A stretch of DNA of 64,000 bases, taken from a virus. Positions 1,685 through 31,530 of the stretch are shown here, one piece after another; the first letter of the stretch is position 1; the number at the start of each line of letters is the position of its first letter. The notes beneath the pieces are model-generated. The model saw only the letters and a program-made list of their open reading frames with translations. It ran no database searches and had not been told where the DNA came from. Location: IMG/VR virus record IMGVR_UViG_3300045450_000145, positions 1 through 64,000 of that record. One strand, written 5' to 3'. A program made the position numbers and the translations under genes.

Positions 1685-2733
1685 AACACGAACCAAAACT
1701 TCTCTCCCGAGATGAGTTTCGGGAAGGGGTTTTTGCTCGAGATAACTTTAGGTGTGTCTTCTGTCAAAAAACCGCCGCCGAAACTCCAGAAAATAAACTT
1801 GACGCCCATCATCTTATCGAGCGCAGGCTCTTTGACAATGGCGGTTACTTCTTAGAAAATGGAATCACAGTCTGCGAAGACCACCACCGCGAATGTGAAA
1901 TGACCACCATTTCTGTCGAGGAGGGTCGAGAGGCGGCTAACATTACAAAAATTGTAGTCCCTGATCAATTCTATCCAGAACAGCCCATCACTAAGTGGGG
2001 CGACTACATCTTAGAAGATAATAAGCGCACCAAGGGGGAGCTATTTTACGATGAGTCTGTTCAGAAAATTCTAGCAAAGGGCGACGTCTTAAAATTATAT
2101 GTGCCATACACCAAGTATGGTAGGACGATGCACCTGCCATGGTCTCCTGGCATTCACGACGATGACAAGGCGTTGAAGGGCACAATACACTTTAATAATA
2201 AAAGAGTAATTGTTACTAAAAAGATGGATGGTGAAAACACCAACATGTACACAGATTACATTCACGCTCGGTCATTAGATAGTAAGGGCGGTGAGGATCG
2301 TGCGTGGGTCAAGAGGTTCCATTCAGAAATCTGCTACAATATACCAGAAGGGTGGCGGGTGTGTGGCGAAAATCTATGGGCAAAGCACTCTATCCAGTAT
2401 GAAGACTTGAAATCTTATTTCTATGGCTTTAGCATTTGGGATGAGCGCAATATTTGCCAGAGTTGGGATGACACCCTCCTGTATTTTGATGTGTTGGGAA
2501 TTACACCCGTTGAAGTTATCTATGATGGCATCTGGGATGAAGATAAAATTAGACACATTGAAAAGAGCTTGATGTGGGAAACTGACGAAGGATATGTTGT
2601 TAGATTGGCAGATGCCTTTTCATATGGTGAGTTTAAAAATTCCGTTGCGAAGTATGTCAGAAAAGGTCATGTACAGACAACCCGCCACTGGAGACAAGGT
2701 CAGCGGTTTATTCCAAACACCTTAATTAAGTAG
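1681..2733 (+). CDS. HNH domain fused to ATP-dependent RNA ligase (Rnl2-like)
   Basis: N-terminal CVFC..DAHHL..NGITVCEDHH; C-terminal KKMDGEN (motif I), GENLWAKHSI, EGYVVR, KYVR. Confidence 0.8.
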   Translation: MKHEPKLLSRDEFREGVFARDNFRCVFCQKTAAETPENKLDAHHLIERRLFDNGGYFLENGITVCEDHHRECEMTTISVEEGREAANITKIVVPDQFYPEQPITKWGDYILEDNKRTKGELFYDESVQKILAKGDVLKLYVPYTKYGRTMHLPWSPGIHDDDKALKGTIHFNNKRVIVTKKMDGENTNMYTDYIHARSLDSKGGEDRAWVKRFHSEICYNIPEGWRVCGENLWAKHSIQYEDLKSYFYGFSIWDERNICQSWDDTLLYFDVLGITPVEVIYDGIWDEDKIRHIEKSLMWETDEGYVVRLADAFSYGEFKNSVAKYVRKGHVQTTRHWRQGQRFIPNTLIK

Positions 2734-2789: not shown

Positions 2790-3611
2790 ATGACCAAAGC
2801 CAAAAATCCTAAGTACAAGCTCACCAATGAGACCTGCGATGTATACTATAACGGTGAATTTATTAGACTTTACCGAATCGAGGCTCTACGTGATATTGAC
2901 GGCTATCCAACTATTAATGTAGGTGCCAAAGGCGGCTTTGTCCAAAGCAAAGCAAACCTCGCTAATAAGGGAAATTGCTGGATTGCAGATGATGCTAAAG
3001 TGTATGGCACAAGTAAAGTGAGTGGCAATGCTCGCGTAACAAACAAATCAGTGGTAATTGATTCTAAAATCATTGAAGATGCTGATGTAAGCGGTAATGC
3101 TACAGTGGTAGGCAGCAACATGAGTGGCTGTTCTTCAGCTGAAAACGACACTATTATTCGAGATTCAAAAATTTTTGGAGGAACTTCTATCCTTCACGAA
3201 GCCCGCATTTTGGAATCGGAAATTAAAGTCAACACGATTGGTGGTGATGCAATCATTGATGAGAGCATTATTGAGGAAGAAGATTTTTCAGAAATTATCA
3301 TTAAAGATGGTAAGTTTTTCCAAGCTGATATCCAAGGCGCCCGTGAATTTATTCTTGTGCCAAATGTCGGTACTGAAAATGGCACACTGACAGTTTATCC
3401 AGGTAAAAATAACAAAGTTTGCGTTTCTCGTGGGTGCTTCAGCGGCACCGCCGAAGAATTTCTCGCGGCATCTGTTACCGCTCACCTTGAGGAAAGCGAT
3501 AATGAAGAAATTTACAAGGAATACAAGGCGCTAATTAAGATTGGAAAGAAGCGAGTCAAGAAGGCGCTAAAGAAGCGTATTATTCTGGATGTAAGTGGAT
3601 CGATGGAGTAA
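2790..3611 (+). CDS. hexapeptide-like (beta-helix) repeat phage protein
   Basis: LYRIEALRDI..GAKGGFV..GNCWIADDAKVYG followed by V.GNA.V-type repeats. Confidence 0.65.
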   Translation: MTKAKNPKYKLTNETCDVYYNGEFIRLYRIEALRDIDGYPTINVGAKGGFVQSKANLANKGNCWIADDAKVYGTSKVSGNARVTNKSVVIDSKIIEDADVSGNATVVGSNMSGCSSAENDTIIRDSKIFGGTSILHEARILESEIKVNTIGGDAIIDESIIEEEDFSEIIIKDGKFFQADIQGAREFILVPNVGTENGTLTVYPGKNNKVCVSRGCFSGTAEEFLAASVTAHLEESDNEEIYKEYKALIKIGKKRVKKALKKRIILDVSGSME

Positions 3612-26228: not shown

Positions 26229-26708
26229 ATGCACGACAAAGATGAAACACAATATGAAAAGAGAGCACGAGCCGGTTTAATCCCATACATCAAGACCCCT
26301 GATGGCTACCAATACCTGATGATGATTAGTTCTGATCCAAAGTTTGGTGGTCCTAAGCCGATGATATCAAAGGGAAAAATTGAACCGGGCGAGACACCGG
26401 CCCAAGCCGCACTTCGAGAAGCCGAGGAAGAGCTCGGCTTAAAAGCATTTAACATTAAAGATGAGTCGTTTGACTTTTTAGTTGGCGAGCGAGTTATCTT
26501 ATACTCGGGTACTTATGACCTTAGTCTGTACTCGTGTGAAATTCTGGATCGACATGACTTTGACAAGTGGTGTGATGAAACGGAATATACAGAGTGGTTT
26601 TCATTGATGGACTTTCAGCAGCGGGGACGTCGAGACCACATCAAATATGTAGAGCGATTGGAGAACAAGTTACGATCGTATAAATTGGCTAGCACAAATA
26701 TGGAGTAA
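26229..26708 (+). CDS. NUDIX hydrolase
   Basis: Nudix box GKIEPGETPAQAALREAEEELG. Confidence 0.92.
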   Translation: MHDKDETQYEKRARAGLIPYIKTPDGYQYLMMISSDPKFGGPKPMISKGKIEPGETPAQAALREAEEELGLKAFNIKDESFDFLVGERVILYSGTYDLSLYSCEILDRHDFDKWCDETEYTEWFSLMDFQQRGRRDHIKYVERLENKLRSYKLASTNME

Positions 26709-26710
26709 AA

Positions 26711-27289
26711 ATGAAAATTCTAGCATTAGATTCACAAGGTCAACCGAACGAATGGCTTTCCAAGCAGGAAGCGATTATTCAGCATGCAAAGGGCAACGTC
26801 ATCTGGCAACTAGGAAACGAAGATGATGAAACTTTATTCCGTGGCGGTATCAACCGAATCACAGGACTGCAGTCTTCAATTGTGACCGCGCCAATCATTG
26901 CTATCCGTGGCGTTGCAGCCCGCTCATCTAAGCTGGCAGGTCGTGCTCCATCACTAACCAATGCGGAACTCTTCCGTCGTGACTTGAATATTTGTGCTTA
27001 CTGCGGTAAGACCTTTCACGCGCTGCGTCTTACCCGCGATCACATCATCCCTCAGTCACGAGGCGGTGTTGACAAGTGGACTAACGTTGTAACTGCATGT
27101 GAAAGCTGCAATCACATGAAGGATGACAAGTTGCTGAGTGAGTGTGGTATGCAACTACTTTATGTGCCATACGTTCCAAACTGGTCAGAAGGCCTGATTT
27201 TGGAAAACCGGAACGTCCTTGCTTGCCAGATGGCATATTTGAAGTCTTTCTTGCCGGAGCACTCTCGAGTGTTGCAGGCAATTCATTAA
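26711..27289 (+). CDS. HNH endonuclease (McrA-like)
   Basis: RRD..CAYCG..TRDHIIPQSRGG..WTNVVTACESCN..K. Confidence 0.92.
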   Translation: MKILALDSQGQPNEWLSKQEAIIQHAKGNVIWQLGNEDDETLFRGGINRITGLQSSIVTAPIIAIRGVAARSSKLAGRAPSLTNAELFRRDLNICAYCGKTFHALRLTRDHIIPQSRGGVDKWTNVVTACESCNHMKDDKLLSECGMQLLYVPYVPNWSEGLILENRNVLACQMAYLKSFLPEHSRVLQAIH

Positions 27290-27339
27290 AAACGCAGGAT
27301 GAATTATATGATTTTTAGTGTATAATTCATTCTTACGTT

Positions 27340-27624
27340 GCAGATATAAAACATCAGCCGCAGTAATTGATTACCTTAATCGTACTTCCCCCAGGGATAT
27401 GCAAGAGAACTTGCTATACGTGACAATACAAATAGTTACTATGCTTGATGATGAATTCATCAATAGGTGCTTATGCCGAAGTATAAGACGTTATCGAGAT
27501 CGTATGCTCTTTCACGCCGCTCAAAGCTTGAAAATTTGGGATAGACTAGGGATGAAAGTCCTATCGCGAAAGCGTAAAACTAGTTGAAATAATTCAATTG
27601 CACCTTTTGCTGATGTTTATTTGC
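27340..27624 (+). ncRNA. candidate structured RNA upstream of Ro60 (Y-RNA-like or regulatory leader)
   Basis: Ends pair (gcagat..aaacatcagc / gctgatgttt.atttgc); inner stem aggtgc/gcacct; several hairpins; -10 box tataat at 27321-27326. Confidence 0.6.
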
Positions 27625-27653
27625 TGTTAAGTCAGCCGTTTTAAGGAGAAAAC

Positions 27654-29273
27654 ATGGGTTCCAATATCTACACATCTTTCGCTGCAGAAAATTCTGTCAA
27701 GCCAACTAAGCAATCTACCCCACAAACTCAAGCTATTCCAGGCCGTGAAGCCGAAATGGCGCGTAATAACGCCGGAGGTTTTTCCTTCACTCTTGGTGAT
27801 TGGGGTGTCCTAGACCGCTTCCTGATGATCGGCTCTGAAAGCGCAGGCTACTATGTCGGTGCCAAGGAAACTACCAAGCTAAGCTTCGACACACTTAAGA
27901 AGTGCATCGCAGAAGATGGTGTTCGCGTCGTCAACCGCATTGTCGAGTACTCTGTTGCAGGTCGTGCGCCAAAGAATGACCCAGCTGTTGTTGCTCTTGC
28001 AGTAACAGCAGTTTATGGCAATCAAGAAACAGTTCAAGCCGCATATGGTGCTCTGTCACAAGTAGCTCGCACTGGTACCCATCTGTTCCTATTTGTTTCA
28101 ATCCTCAATGACCTTGGTAAGTGGAATGCAGCTGCAAAGCGCGGTGTTTCCGCATGGTATAACGGTAAGCGAGATGACAAGCTAGCAGTTCAGCTGCTAA
28201 AGTACCAAAGCCGTAATGGTTGGTCTCACCGTGACGTTCTTCGCCTGGCGCACGTCAAGGCTGGAACTCCAGCTCAGAATGCGCTCTTCCGCCTGGCGGT
28301 TAAGGGTGAACTGACTGATGAAGCCGGTGTAATTCTACCGCGTCTCGTTGAAGACTTCCTAACCTTGAAGGGTAATACCGACAAGCGTAAGGTCCTGTCT
28401 ATCATTGAGCAGAATGACCAGGTTTCTTGGGAAATGATTCCAACCGAGTTCATGAAGGACAAGGACATCTTGTTCGCGCTTGTGAAGAACATGGGTATGA
28501 CCGCGCTTATTCGTAAGCTTGGTTCTCTGTCTGCACACGGTGTAATTGATCCCCTGTCTGAAGGTGCAAAGCTAGTTAATAGCAAGCTTGCGGACACTGA
28601 AGCGCTAGTTCGTGGTCGTGTTCACCCAGTTACTATTTTGCAGGCAATGAAGCAATATGCTCAAGGTCGCGGTGAAAAGGGTTCTCTGGTTTGGACTCCA
28701 AATCAATTTATTGTTTCCACTCTAGATGATGCATTCTATGCGTCATTCGGTACCATTGAAAAGACCAACGAGTCTTACCTACTTGGTGTTGACATCTCTG
28801 GTTCCATGACTGGTGCGATGGTAAATGGTTCGCCTAACCTTCGCGCGTGTGATGTTGCAGCCGTCATGGCAATGGCAATTGCGCGCAACCAGCCAAATAG
28901 CCACATTGTTGGTTTCAACCAAAAAATCAAGGAGCTCAAGATCAACTCTAAGATGCGCCTTGACCAGGCGCTAGGTGAAATGCGTAACTGGGATGGTGGT
29001 GGCACCGACTGTGCGAAGCTCTTTGAGTATGCTAAGCAAAAGGGTATGCACGTCGACAAGTTTGTGTCTATTACTGACAATGAAACTTGGGCTGGTAACC
29101 AAGCTCCTGTACAGGCACTGAAGAAGTATCGTGCAGCAAAGAACCAAAATGCTAAGTCTGTTGTGATTGGTACCTCGGTATCCAACTTCACAATTGCCGA
29201 TCCTAAGGATGCAGGTATGCTAGACATTGCTGGCTTCGACTCAGCAGCACCGCAAATCATTGCAATGCTATGA
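27654..29273 (+). CDS. rsr: Ro60/TROVE-domain RNA-binding protein
   Basis: NNAGGF..LDRFLMIGSE, YQSRNGWSHRDVLRLAH, vWA MIDAS DISGSM, TDNET, GFDS. Confidence 0.93.
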   Translation: MGSNIYTSFAAENSVKPTKQSTPQTQAIPGREAEMARNNAGGFSFTLGDWGVLDRFLMIGSESAGYYVGAKETTKLSFDTLKKCIAEDGVRVVNRIVEYSVAGRAPKNDPAVVALAVTAVYGNQETVQAAYGALSQVARTGTHLFLFVSILNDLGKWNAAAKRGVSAWYNGKRDDKLAVQLLKYQSRNGWSHRDVLRLAHVKAGTPAQNALFRLAVKGELTDEAGVILPRLVEDFLTLKGNTDKRKVLSIIEQNDQVSWEMIPTEFMKDKDILFALVKNMGMTALIRKLGSLSAHGVIDPLSEGAKLVNSKLADTEALVRGRVHPVTILQAMKQYAQGRGEKGSLVWTPNQFIVSTLDDAFYASFGTIEKTNESYLLGVDISGSMTGAMVNGSPNLRACDVAAVMAMAIARNQPNSHIVGFNQKIKELKINSKMRLDQALGEMRNWDGGGTDCAKLFEYAKQKGMHVDKFVSITDNETWAGNQAPVQALKKYRAAKNQNAKSVVIGTSVSNFTIADPKDAGMLDIAGFDSAAPQIIAML

Positions 29274-29278
29274 AAAAA

Positions 29279-29304
29279 TAAAGGGACCCAAATGGGTCCC
29301 TTTT
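29279..29304. terminator. intrinsic terminator
   Basis: aaagggaccc-aaat-gggtcccttttt. Confidence 0.8.
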
Positions 29305-29334
29305 TAATTTATAATTGTAATTTTAGGAATTAAC

Positions 29335-29529
29335 ATGATCACACTCTTTATTGCCACTTTGGTAATTTCGGTGCTTATTGGCGCACTTGGAATTTGGTTT
29401 GCATTTGAAAAGACTGACTCTTCAGAGGGCGCTTTTGGCGTATGTGTATTGGTTTTATGTTTTGGCGTCGCCATGATCTTTATGTTGAACGACATGCTGC
29501 AACACATTATTAAGCTGACAATTGTATGA
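29335..29529 (+). CDS. small two-TM membrane protein
   Basis: Two hydrophobic segments. Confidence 0.55.
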   Translation: MITLFIATLVISVLIGALGIWFAFEKTDSSEGAFGVCVLVLCFGVAMIFMLNDMLQHIIKLTIV

Positions 29530-29686
29530 ATGAAGAAAAACTTAAGCTCTTTATTAATGGCGAGATTGATGGCACCGAGCTAACAGATGAAGAAGTACAT
29601 TACTTGGAAGAACAAGTAAAACAGGTGGTTGCAGAAATGGCTAAAAATGGCTATGCGCCTGGTTCAAAAACCATCCAATAAAACTG

Positions 29687-30421: not shown

Positions 30422-30688
30422 ATGAAAATCGATCCTAAGCTAATTGGGACGATCCCGGAAGTCGAGTGCCTGCGGGATGAGTTAGATATTATCGTCTTGC
30501 GATACGAGACCGAAGTTGCGCGCCGCCGGAGCAACATCCCATTTATTGAAGGCAGCGAGATTCGGCCCGACATTATCGCAGACGCAATCATCATTGAGAT
30601 GTGTGCCACTCACTTCTACGGTTTTGTGGTAGAAGAATTTAACACCATGACAGATTTAATTGCTGCCATGTATAATTTGGAGACATGA
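30422..30688 (+). CDS. hypothetical protein (paralogue of previous ORF)
   Basis: MKIDPKLIGTIP..HFYG. Confidence 0.6.
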   Translation: MKIDPKLIGTIPEVECLRDELDIIVLRYETEVARRRSNIPFIEGSEIRPDIIADAIIIEMCATHFYGFVVEEFNTMTDLIAAMYNLET

Positions 30689-31530
30689 TGGGACGGATTG
30701 ATAATGACGCGCTCGGAGATAGGATGAAGCAATATGAGGCGGTAAGTACGTCTCGCAAAGCTTTCAAGGGGCAGCCTCTTATTGCTCGGCTTGATGGCAA
30801 AAATTTTAGTACCTTTACTGGTGGTTTAACTAAGCCTTACCATGAAGGCCTAATTAAGCTAATGCAACATCTTACGCGCTATCTAGTCGAAGAATATCAA
30901 GCCACAATTGGATACACTCAAAGCGACGAAATTACACTCGTCTTTTTGTCTAAAACTAACGACGCTGGCGAGCTTCTGTTTGATGGGCGCTTTCAAAAGT
31001 TGGATTCTCTATTGGCCGCAGATGCATCAGTTGAATTTAATTCCCTCATTGAACGCTATCTACCAGAACGAAATCCCCAGCTTGGGTATACTGGCAAGAA
31101 GCCAAAGTTTGACTGTCGCACCTACATTGTGCCGACTGTAATGGAGGCATACAACACGGTGCTATGGCGTCAGTTGGATGCAACTAAAAATGCGATCTCG
31201 ATGGCTGCTCAAAGCTGCTTTAGTTACAAAGAACTGCATGGTAAAAACGGCGGTGAGATGAAGAAAATGCTGCTCTCGAAGCATGGCATTGACTTCGATT
31301 TAGACTATCCATTTCATTTTAAGCGAGGCAGTTTCTTTAGTAGACAAAAAATGTCAATGCCTCTGTCTGAAGAGCAGCTTGCTAAGATGCCAGCTCACCT
31401 CCGTGCAACTCAAGAGAATGCAGAGTTTGTGCGTAGCTATACTAGATGTAGCGACATCGATCTGCTAACTCAAGAAAATCCCATTGTTGCCCTTTTTGGC
31501 GATAAGGTTATTAAACCGATCGGTGAGTAA
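30685..31530 (+). CDS. thg1: tRNA-His guanylyltransferase Thg1-like protein
   Basis: LGDRMKQYE, ARLDGKNFSTFT, YTQSDEITL, FDCR, WRQLDATKNAISM. Confidence 0.92.
   Translation: MMGRIDNDALGDRMKQYEAVSTSRKAFKGQPLIARLDGKNFSTFTGGLTKPYHEGLIKLMQHLTRYLVEEYQATIGYTQSDEITLVFLSKTNDAGELLFDGRFQKLDSLLAADASVEFNSLIERYLPERNPQLGYTGKKPKFDCRTYIVPTVMEAYNTVLWRQLDATKNAISMAAQSCFSYKELHGKNGGEMKKMLLSKHGIDFDLDYPFHFKRGSFFSRQKMSMPLSEEQLAKMPAHLRATQENAEFVRSYTRCSDIDLLTQENPIVALFGDKVIKPIGE

What the first reader, a model, noticed from the sequence alone, without database searches (positions are those of the whole stretch)
27321..29273. Phage Ro60 preceded by an unannotated ~290 nt multi-hairpin RNA
After a -10 box (27321-27326), the 5' end aaacatcagc (27349-27358) pairs perfectly with gctgatgttt (27609-27618), extended by gcagat/atttgc. 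Inside are a second long-range stem aggtgc/gcacct (27465-27470/27600-27605) and hairpins gatta/taatc, tccc/ggga, gcaag/cttgc, gtgac/gttac, ttgatga/tcatcaa, gatag/ctatc, cgc-gaaa-gcg and ttgaa/ttcaa. One hairpin presents CTTGAAA (27527-27533), a Ser(UGA)-like anticodon loop, and GCCGAAG (27475-27481) fits my recollection of the bacterial Y-RNA Ro-binding consensus. Ro60 proteins work with Y RNAs, often tRNA mimics encoded beside rsr. This RNA is longer than typical Y RNAs and has no T-arm, so it may be a new class, or else an autoregulatory 5' leader.
Basis: partly seen in the sequence, partly recalled or inferred. Interest (0 to 1): 0.82.

Follow-up and report, generated by a model that had tools for sequence, protein, structure and literature searches.

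The report
Oversized Y RNA before phage Ro60
The 364-base gap in front of this giant phage's Ro60 gene encodes a conserved, about 280-base folded RNA whose base matches the Ro60-docking stem of bacterial Y RNAs. Its top is a large new multi-hairpin domain instead of the usual tRNA look-alike, so it is an enlarged variant of a known RNA-protein partnership.

Summary
Window 27349-27618 (+) is a structured RNA closed by a 10-bp stem, followed by a small hairpin, the ribosome-binding site and a full-length Ro60 gene.

- **Family membership:** a covariance model built from 9 relatives, without the window, finds this RNA at 29.5 bits (E=7e-7). The next best hit in 64 kb scores 9.6 bits.
- **Distribution:** homologous 220-420 nt RNAs precede Ro60 in at least 40 related loci, many from 336-375 kb jumbo-phage contigs.
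- **Covariation:** in 36 sequences P1 is 90% paired with compensatory changes at 11 of 12 pairs. The P2 core is 100% paired.
- **Link to Y RNAs:** the base (P1, invariant C|CG, P2, UUGGUUAUC, 3' U-rich strand) is shared with YrlA-size Y RNAs beside more distant Ro60 genes. The apical ~210 nt has no T or D arm and no Rfam match.
- **Rejected readings:** the 89-aa ORF is not conserved.
- **Extra elements:** a hairpin at 27620-27638 copies the top of P1 just before the ribosome-binding site. NUDIX and HNH genes are conserved upstream neighbours.

Ro60 binding is inferred, not shown. Earlier follow-ups in this scan reached similar readings on other phage DNA.

The parts
27321..27326 (+). Candidate -10 box (TATAAT), 14-28 nt before the stem
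   Evidence: Read in sequence. TAnAAT-like boxes lie a few nt before the first RNA in relatives L116, L101, L010, L098 and L102. The consensus scan did not call it a full sigma-70 promoter. Inferred only.
27349..27618 (+). Long Y-RNA-like RNA, core defined by the covariance-model hit. A possible outer extension runs 27340-27624.
   Evidence: R2 hit at 29.5 bits, E=7e-7, over the full model 1-265. It is the single copy in the 183.5-kb record. There is no Rfam family match.
27349..27358 (+). P1 5' strand (AAACAUCAGC), pairing with 27609-27618
   Evidence: In A8 (36 sequences) P1 is 89.8% paired, 11 of 12 pairs change on both sides, and the closing C-G is invariant in 36 of 36. In A12 it is 92.6% paired.
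27356..27362 (+). GCCGCAG: junction motif in the position of the YrlA Ro-binding motif GNCGAAN0-1G. The C|CG is invariant in the family.
   Evidence: CCG is conserved at >=90% in 42 distinct sequences. The motif definition is from Chen et al. 2014. Distant loci carry GCCGAAG or GCCGGAG at the same place.
27363..27370 (+). P2 5' strand (GUAAUUGA), pairing with 27594-27601 (UCAAUUGC)
   Evidence: The P2 core is 100% paired in 36 sequences. The outer 4 pairs covary, for example GUGAUUGG/CCGAUCAC and GAAAUUGG/CCGAUUUC.
27371..27375 (+). UUACC, the family's UUAUC. With P2 it forms UUGRUUAYC, which is the 5' end of the Rfam YrlA model.
27376..27583 (+). Apical 'effector' domain of about 208 nt and about 10 hairpins, variable in sequence across the family
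   Evidence: Constrained fold. YCGAA is enriched 2-fold (z=5.1) and UAGG 2.4-fold (z=8.5) in 36 interiors. There is no T arm or D arm.
27470..27487 (+).
   Evidence: Sequence and fold. Loops of the YCGAA type recur in relatives.
27496..27509 (+). Hairpin Hp (GAG/CUC, loop AUCGUAUG), preceded by the conserved ACGUU at 27488-92
   Evidence: R2 alignment. In the family Hp is 84% paired, with all 4 pairs changing on both sides.
27520..27546 (+). Hairpin Hq (CUCAAA/UUUGGG, loop GCUUGAAAA) followed by AUAGAC, the family's GUAGG
   Evidence: The placement of the window in this part of the alignment has low posterior probability.
27584..27608 (+). 3' half of the base: UUGAAAUAAU (family YGAAAUNU), P2 3' strand 27594-27601, and J3 ACCUUUU 27602-27608
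27609..27618 (+). P1 3' strand (GCUGAUGUUU)
27620..27638 (+). Leader hairpin UUU-GCUG-UUAAGU-CAGC-CG, a small copy of the top of P1 with its two junction strands, 5 nt before the ribosome-binding site
   Evidence: The pattern TTTGCTG-N3-12-CAGCCG occurs once in the window against 0.02 expected. It occurs in 21 loci and, where the Ro60 start is known, always within about 110 nt upstream of it. It stays with Ro60 when ORFs are inserted, as in L001, L002 and L095.
27643..27648 (+). Ribosome-binding site AAGGAG
   Evidence: Sequence.
27654..29273 (+). Ro60 (TROVE + vWA with the MIDAS motif DISGS), 539 aa
   Evidence: Pfam; PDB 2NVO, 9NEN and 1YVP; 4827 homologues at E<=1e-50.
29280..29303 (.). Bidirectional intrinsic terminator ending the unit
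26229..27289 (+). NUDIX (26229-26708) and HNH_5 (26711-27289) genes, conserved upstream neighbours of the module
   Evidence: Pfam. HNH is 66% and NUDIX 56% identical to the L086 neighbours. HNH is present in 34 of the 40 long-RNA loci examined.

Best explanation
This is a Y RNA of unusual size, the RNA partner of the phage's own Ro60.

- **Transcription:** it is transcribed on the same strand as Ro60, probably from the box at 27321, with no terminator in between.
- **Closing and docking:** its two ends pair (P1) and close the molecule. The base is P1, then an asymmetric internal loop (5' CG.., 3' AC..UUU), then P2 and UUAYC. This base is the Ro60 docking module inherited from YrlA-type Y RNAs, and the conserved bases lie on its 5' strand, as described for known Y RNAs.
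- **Effector domain:** the tRNA-like effector module of YrlA is replaced here by a domain of about 210 nt and about ten hairpins. This domain would tether Ro60 to another factor (host PNPase, or the conserved HNH and NUDIX neighbours) or gate its RNA-binding cavity.
- **Leader hairpin:** the hairpin at 27620-27638 repeats the docking junction just before the ribosome-binding site. It may let Ro60 repress its own translation, or it may cap the mRNA once the Y RNA is cut off.

Shown: the RNA is a real, covarying family member, it is linked to Ro60, and it shares its base with YrlA-size RNAs. Inferred: Ro60 binding, processing into a discrete RNA, the role of the apical domain and autoregulation.
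For: - **Ro60 is genuine and full length**.
- **The RNA tracks Ro60.** R2 gives 50 hits at E<0.01 in 98 sources, all on the Ro60 strand. All the full-length long-form hits end within about 1 kb upstream of Ro60 and usually about 60 nt upstream. Three weak, YrlA-size hits (L145, L147, L020) are of the short form, and the L145/L147 hits lie downstream of Ro60. My descriptor finds the long form in about 40 of about 49 loci with Ro60 >=54% identical.
- **The structure covaries.** In A8, 81% of cells are paired against 58% after shuffling and 36-44% when slid; the covariation score is 0.635 against 0.215, reached by 0 of 500 shuffles. A12 gives the same picture.
- **The window is independently recognised** by a model trained without it, at E=7e-7.
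- **The base is shared with YrlA.** The string CCG(A/G)A..(R)UUGGUUAUC heads sub-threshold RF02553 YrlA hits of 35-43 bits in loci L134, L145 and L020. R2 also picks up these YrlA-size RNAs.
- **Only the base is sequence-conserved**, as described for Y RNAs: a conserved 5' strand and a variable effector module (bioRxiv 10.1101/312249).
- **It is an independent module.** It persists when 1-2 ORFs or a ~760-nt insert separate it from Ro60, as in L001, L002, L095 and L094.
- **Precedent:** phage phiLo Ro60 binds two upstream Yrl RNAs and host PNPase (PMC12135203).
Against: - No binding, transcript or processing data exist, because the phage is uncultured.
- The window's junction reads CGCA rather than CGAA, so the literal GNCGAAN0-1G motif is not met at the homologous site.
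- Rfam YrlA does not score the RNA at all, even at E<=10.
- At about 270-285 nt it lies far outside the 80-130 nt of characterised Y RNAs.
- No terminator separates it from Ro60, so it could act only in cis.
- blastn and nhmmer could not link the window to its relatives by sequence. A first, poorly structured model gave the window only 3 bits.
- The shuffle controls ignore phylogeny.
Confidence: 0.72

Rival explanations
1. It is purely a cis-acting 5' leader of the Ro60 mRNA. On this reading it is a structured untranslated region that controls stability or translation, perhaps by binding Ro60 in cis, and it is never released as a separate RNA.
For: It lies on the same strand with no terminator between it and Ro60. 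In most loci it ends about 30-60 nt before the start codon. A conserved hairpin abuts the ribosome-binding site. In the window, the outer P1 extension (27619-24) and the leader hairpin (27623-36) compete for the same bases, which would suit a switch.
Against: The RNA is a self-closed domain. It keeps its structure when ORFs or a ~760-nt insert separate it from Ro60 (L001, L002, L095, L094), whereas the leader hairpin stays with Ro60. Its base is homologous to trans-acting Y RNAs. Short relatives of the same base module lie far from Ro60, after tRNA genes, in complete related genomes. Known bacterial Y RNAs are likewise co-transcribed with rsr and then processed; this point rests on my own knowledge of the Salmonella rsr-yrlBA-rtcBA operon and was not checked here.
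Confidence: 0.17
2. The RNA partners the conserved upstream HNH (and NUDIX) proteins rather than Ro60. For example, it could act as a guide or scaffold for an RNA-associated nuclease.
For: HNH_5 and NUDIX genes are conserved upstream, and their identities track that of Ro60.
Against: The RNA always abuts Ro60 and not HNH. One further gene lies between HNH and the RNA in L086 and L099. L005/L083 and L004 keep the RNA with no HNH in the 2-3.5 kb upstream that was fetched. The conserved part of the RNA is the Y-RNA docking module. The window's HNH is a 192-aa protein with an HNH domain only.
Confidence: 0.06
3. The region encodes the 89-aa GTG ORF (27318-27587), and the apparent structure is incidental.
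For: The ORF is open in the window.
Against: It has no Pfam match. In most of the 35 relatives each forward frame across the homologous region is cut to about 15-60 codons, and the few longer open stretches fall in different frames. Conservation follows base pairs and not codons.
Confidence: 0.01

Closest known systems
YrlA (Rfam RF02553): Y RNAs of Salmonella, Mycobacterium smegmatis and mycobacteriophages (Chen et al. 2014, PMC4201824)
   Same: Encoded next to Ro60 on the same strand. The 5' and 3' ends form a long stem. It has a conserved 5'-strand motif at the stem junction (G-N-C-G..), then a second helix beginning UUGGUUAUC, with a U-rich opposite strand. The architecture is modular, with a docking module plus an effector module.
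   Different: YrlA is about 110 nt and its effector module is a tRNA mimic with T and D arms. Here the effector module is about 210 nt of roughly ten hairpins with no T or D arm. RF02553 gives no hit even at E<=10. The AA of CGAA is not kept in the window.
Thermus phage phiLo Ro60 with Yrl1 and Yrl2 (PMC12135203)
   Same: A phage-encoded Ro60 with partner RNAs in the non-coding stretch just upstream. In that system Ro60 binding and ternary complexes with host PNPase were shown by experiment.
   Different: As described, the phiLo RNAs are ordinary stem-bulge-stem Y-like RNAs chosen by a CGAA motif. No oversized apical domain and no look-alike hairpin at the ribosome-binding site is reported.
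Deinococcus radiodurans Yrn1 in the Ro60-Y RNA-PNPase machine (RYPER)
   Same: It offers a model for function: the stem binds Ro60, and the other end tethers an effector (the KH/S1 domains of PNPase).
   Different: Yrn1 is about 120 nt and no sequence relation was detected. The phage record holds no PNPase or RNase PH domain, so any such partner would belong to the host.
Translational operators that mimic the protein's primary RNA site (ribosomal-protein operators, the ThrRS operator); relevant to the leader hairpin only
   Same: A small copy of the primary binding site is placed at the ribosome-binding site of the protein's own mRNA.
   Different: This is purely an analogy. Ro60 autoregulation of this kind has not been described in the papers I could search.

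Membership tests
Y RNA (functional class: Ro60-bound non-coding RNA) | Encoded beside Ro60 on the same strand | tested here: met
   The RNA ends 36 nt before the Ro60 start codon. The same holds in 50 model hits.
Y RNA (functional class: Ro60-bound non-coding RNA) | Long stem formed by pairing of the 5' and 3' ends | tested here: met
   P1 is 90-93% paired, with compensatory changes at 9-11 of 10-12 pairs.
Y RNA (functional class: Ro60-bound non-coding RNA) | Conserved Ro60-binding sequence on the 5' strand of the stem | tested here: inconclusive
   The invariant C|CG and UUGRUUAYC lie on the 5' strand. However, the window has GCCGCAG rather than GNCGAA(N)G, and binding is untested.
Y RNA (functional class: Ro60-bound non-coding RNA) | Size of 80-130 nt, as in all characterised Y RNAs | tested here: not met
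   270 nt for the core and about 285 nt with the extension. Across the family the range is 220-420 nt.
Y RNA (functional class: Ro60-bound non-coding RNA) | Physically bound by Ro60 | not testable with these tools
   This needs RIP or EMSA.
YrlA (Rfam RF02553) | Score at or above the gathering threshold of 69 bits | tested here: not met
   There is no RF02553 match at E<=10 in 27000-29600, and none on the long RNAs of L001, L002, L085, L101, L110 or L012.
YrlA (Rfam RF02553) | tRNA-like effector domain with T arm and D arm | tested here: not met
   ARAGORN and the Rfam tRNA model find nothing in the RNA. There is no GTTCRA T-loop in the window RNA.
YrlA (Rfam RF02553) | Ro-binding module followed by a helix starting UUGGUUAUC | tested here: met
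   The same string begins the RF02553 alignment in L145 and heads the RNAs beside distant Ro60 genes. R2 cross-detects those RNAs.
Cis-regulatory leader or riboswitch | Fixed position directly upstream of the regulated ORF, with an expression platform at the ribosome-binding site | tested here: inconclusive
   The large RNA can be separated from Ro60 by ORFs. The small leader hairpin does keep a fixed position at the ribosome-binding site.

The most novel reading that the evidence does not exclude
The enlarged apical domain is a multivalent platform. Its repeated YCGAA-type hairpin loops and UAG-spaced hairpin array would bind more than one Ro60 ring, or recruit the co-conserved HNH and NUDIX enzymes. 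Together these would form a phage-specific RNA surveillance or repair particle that has no tRNA-mimic step. Ro60 would set its own level through the docking-site look-alike at its ribosome-binding site.
Probability: 0.2. Interest if true: 0.8.

Novelty: new variant of a known kind. Interest (0 to 1): 0.6.

Why it matters
Ro60 and Y RNAs are conserved from bacteria to humans, yet what the variable end of a Y RNA recruits is largely unknown. So is the reason phages carry the system.

A large, covarying family gives a natural experiment in effector-module replacement. It has more than 40 members here, and thousands of Ro60 homologues are available for further sampling. It keeps the docking stem but swaps the tRNA mimic for a domain three times larger.

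It also points to two testable leads. One is a set of candidate partner enzymes, the conserved NUDIX and HNH genes. The other is a possible autoregulatory look-alike hairpin. The family is absent from Rfam and would be a straightforward addition.

Tried and rejected
- **Sequence-only links:** blastn and nhmmer with the window or the L001 RNA found only near-identical relatives and never linked the window. The phage nucleotide collection gave no match, and an exact 27-mer scan of viral contigs found nothing.
- **Covariance models:** model R1, built from an unanchored MAFFT alignment, kept only 14 pairs and gave the window 3 bits. I then re-registered every sequence on the P1 junction. The 265-position R2 worked.
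- **Rfam:** there is nothing for the RNA. The weak MicX, SraG and ohsC matches at 29077-29355 are just the Ro60 terminator.
- **Not held:** two reviews I wanted (PMC10870794, PMC5062991) are not in the library.
Full report
**What is there**

The window is the first 64 kb of a 183.5-kb viral record that is estimated to be 51% complete. The record carries 19 tRNA genes.

Positions 27654-29273 (+) encode a full-length Ro60. Pfam gives vWA_Ro60 at 1.4e-51 and TROVE at 1.7e-23. The best solved relatives are D. radiodurans Rsr 2NVO (5e-98), human RO60 and Xenopus Ro60.

The 364-nt gap upstream (27290-27653) has no Rfam match, even at E<=10. The region folds better than shuffled sequence: -78.4 kcal/mol, z=-2.54. 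A strong bidirectional terminator follows Ro60 at 29280-29303, and none lies between the RNA and Ro60.

**Relatives**

No close phage genome is in the annotated collection; Ro60 of actinophages is less than 40% identical. Metagenomes, however, hold thousands of homologues. There are 4827 at E<=1e-50, the nearest is 70% identical, and many sit on contigs of 250-375 kb.

I fetched 160 loci. Plain sequence searches could not connect the window's gap to theirs. Reading the upstream regions showed one recurring plan:
- a long closing stem (P1);
- an invariant C|CG at its inner end;
- a second helix (P2) ending in UUGGUUAUC;
- a variable interior of tandem hairpins;
- the strand YGAAAUNU, then the P2 partner, then an A/C..UUU strand, then the P1 partner.

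**Registration and covariation**

I registered 36 distinct RNAs on the P1 junction and aligned them (A8). The window maps as follows:

| Element | Window coordinates | Sequence |
|---|---|---|
| P1 | 27349-58 / 27609-18 | AAACAUCAGC / GCUGAUGUUU |
| J5 | 27359-62 | CGCA |
| P2 | 27363-70 / 27594-27601 | GUAAUUGA / UCAAUUGC |
| post-P2 | 27371-75 | UUACC |
| J3 | 27602-08 | ACCUUUU |

On A8 the named structure has 81.1% of cells paired. Shuffling gives 57.7% and sliding the partners gives 36-44%. P1 is 89.8% paired, with changes on both sides at 11 of 12 pairs. The P2 core is 100% paired. The covariation score is 0.635 against 0.215, reached by 0 of 500 shuffles. These controls do not remove phylogenetic signal. 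The slid controls and the many pair types per column make a structural constraint the only reasonable reading.

**Independent test of the window's membership**

A covariance model (R2) was built from nine relatives without the window, using P1, P2 and two internal hairpins. It finds 27349-27618 at 29.5 bits, E=7e-7, across the full model in a search of the whole 64 kb. The next hit scores 9.6 bits.

Over 98 sources R2 gives 50 hits at E<0.01, all on the Ro60 strand. All the full-length long-form hits lie within about 1 kb upstream of Ro60. Three weak hits of YrlA size are the exception: L020 lies just upstream, and the L145/L147 hits lie downstream of Ro60. The model-fitted alignment repeats the covariation result: P1 92.6%, P2 80.5%, Hp 84%, Hq 68%.

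A hand-written descriptor hits the window once and hits 0 of 200 shuffles.

**Relation to known Y RNAs**

Chen et al. 2014 define the YrlA Ro-binding motif as GNCGAAN0-1G and note that characterised Y RNAs are 80-130 nt. Beside more distant Ro60 genes (41-48% identity) the same base heads RNAs of 50-150 nt, with GCCGAAG or GCCGGAG followed by (R)UUGGUUAUC. These RNAs are often tandem. Several of them are sub-threshold RF02553 YrlA hits of 35-43 bits, and their Rfam alignments begin exactly at UUGGUUAUC. R2 cross-detects them.

The long form is confined to the clade whose Ro60 is at least 54% identical to the window's, plus L118/L119. It is found in about 40 of about 49 such loci by descriptor, and more by eye.

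Across 42 distinct sequences only the base is conserved at >=90%: CCG, U.G.UUA.C, CC.A and UU.G. This matches the published picture of a conserved docking strand with a variable effector module.

The homologous docking motif in the window is therefore GCCGCAG (27356-62). It belongs to a class of YCGAA loops that is enriched 2-fold in the interiors, z=5.1. What these loops do is unknown.

**Not coding, and not HNH-bound**

The 89-aa GTG ORF has no family. It is not conserved: in most relatives each forward frame across the region is broken into stretches of about 15-60 codons, and the few longer stretches fall in different frames.

The upstream HNH_5 and NUDIX genes are not a stray homing element. 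HNH is 66% and 50% identical, and NUDIX 56% identical, to the neighbours in L086 and L099, which tracks Ro60. HNH lies upstream in 34 of the 40 long-RNA loci examined.

The RNA nevertheless abuts Ro60 and not HNH. It also persists where no HNH is present in the flank that was fetched (L004, L005). I therefore rank an HNH partnership as a minor rival and a possible third component.

A Thg1-like gene lies downstream in the window, in L005 and in L084. The record has an Rnl2-type RNA ligase but no RtcB and no PNPase domain.

**Leader hairpin**

Between P1 and the ribosome-binding site lies UUU-GCUG-loop-CAGC-CG (27620-27638).
- The pattern occurs once in the window against 0.02 expected.
- It occurs in 21 loci and, where the Ro60 start is known, always within about 110 nt upstream of it.
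- A covarying GUUGGC/GCCAAC version occurs in L001, L002, L095 and L097.
- When small ORFs are inserted after the RNA, the hairpin stays with Ro60.

Its closing G-C pair, the purine before C|CG and the 5' UUU reproduce the inner end of P1 with both junction strands. In P1 that closing pair is invariant and the next pair is A-U or G-C.

I infer either a Ro60 operator or a protective 5' hairpin left after processing. Neither is tested.

**Wider context**

In complete relatives (336-358 kb, 97-100% complete) the long RNA next to Ro60 is the best R2 hit in two of four genomes. Further hits of 91-137 nt lie elsewhere in three of those genomes. The four I fetched each lie next to a tRNA gene. No such short copy was found in this window or record.

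**Literature and earlier notes**

In the searchable library I found no description of Ro60-linked RNAs above about 130 nt, or of this family. A survey of jumbo phages notes only that TROVE and Thg1 occur sporadically.

Earlier follow-ups of this scan on other phage genomes reported an oversized Y RNA of about 290-300 nt and a look-alike hairpin at the ribosome-binding site. I saw these notes only after reaching the same reading. They are unchecked AI notes, not independent evidence.

**Verdict**

This is a real, conserved, covarying RNA. It is best read as an enlarged variant of the Y RNA of a phage Ro60: a new variant of a known kind. Binding, processing and the role of the new apical domain remain to be shown.

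Noticed in passing
window 26229-27289: The NUDIX and HNH_5 genes form a conserved pair upstream of the Ro60 module. HNH is 46-67% and NUDIX 34-68% identical across relatives. HNH is present in 51 of 162 fetched loci, essentially only in the long-RNA clade. They may be further components of the particle.
   Followed up: partly
window 30685-31530; L005 6242-7345; L084 about 7613: A Thg1-like 3'-5' polymerase gene (PF04446) lies 1.4-4 kb downstream of Ro60 in the window and in two relatives. This hints at a tRNA or RNA-end repair neighbourhood.
   Followed up: partly
L165 189-313 (-), L166, L167, L168: Complete related jumbo-phage genomes carry extra Y-like RNAs of 91-137 nt with the same docking base, elsewhere in the genome. 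The four I fetched each lie next to a tRNA gene. The one I read (L165) lies directly after a tRNA gene and has a T-loop-like GUUCGAUUC.
   Followed up: partly
L085 2837-2974; L099 about 2975-3060; L101 3019-3085; L105, L110, L112, L115, L117, L012: Many loci have a second, short (75-140 nt) Y-like RNA in tandem just upstream of the long one. L101's copy scores just below the gathering score (37 of 38 bits) for the nematode stem-bulge RNA family RF01656. The window lacks such a short copy.
   Followed up: partly
L001 2741-2955; L002 801-1016; L095 about 3121-3330: A small conserved ORF (beginning MEKLS..) starts right at the 3' end of P1 and separates the RNA from Ro60 in this sub-clade. Its function is unknown.
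   Followed up: no
L094 about 2830-3480: An ORF of about 220 aa is inserted between the RNA and Ro60. By eye its start reads like a GIY-YIG homing endonuclease (IYVLTDP..YVGKS). The leader hairpin is missing there.
   Followed up: no
window 2203-2658: An Rnl2-type RNA ligase domain (PF09414, 90.6 bits) sits in a 355-aa open frame. The 183.5-kb record has no RtcB and no RNase PH/PNPase domain.
   Followed up: partly
window 29077-29315 (-): A weak Rfam MicX match (29.6 bits against a gathering score of 75) is driven by the Ro60 terminator hairpin. It is not a real sRNA call.
   Followed up: yes
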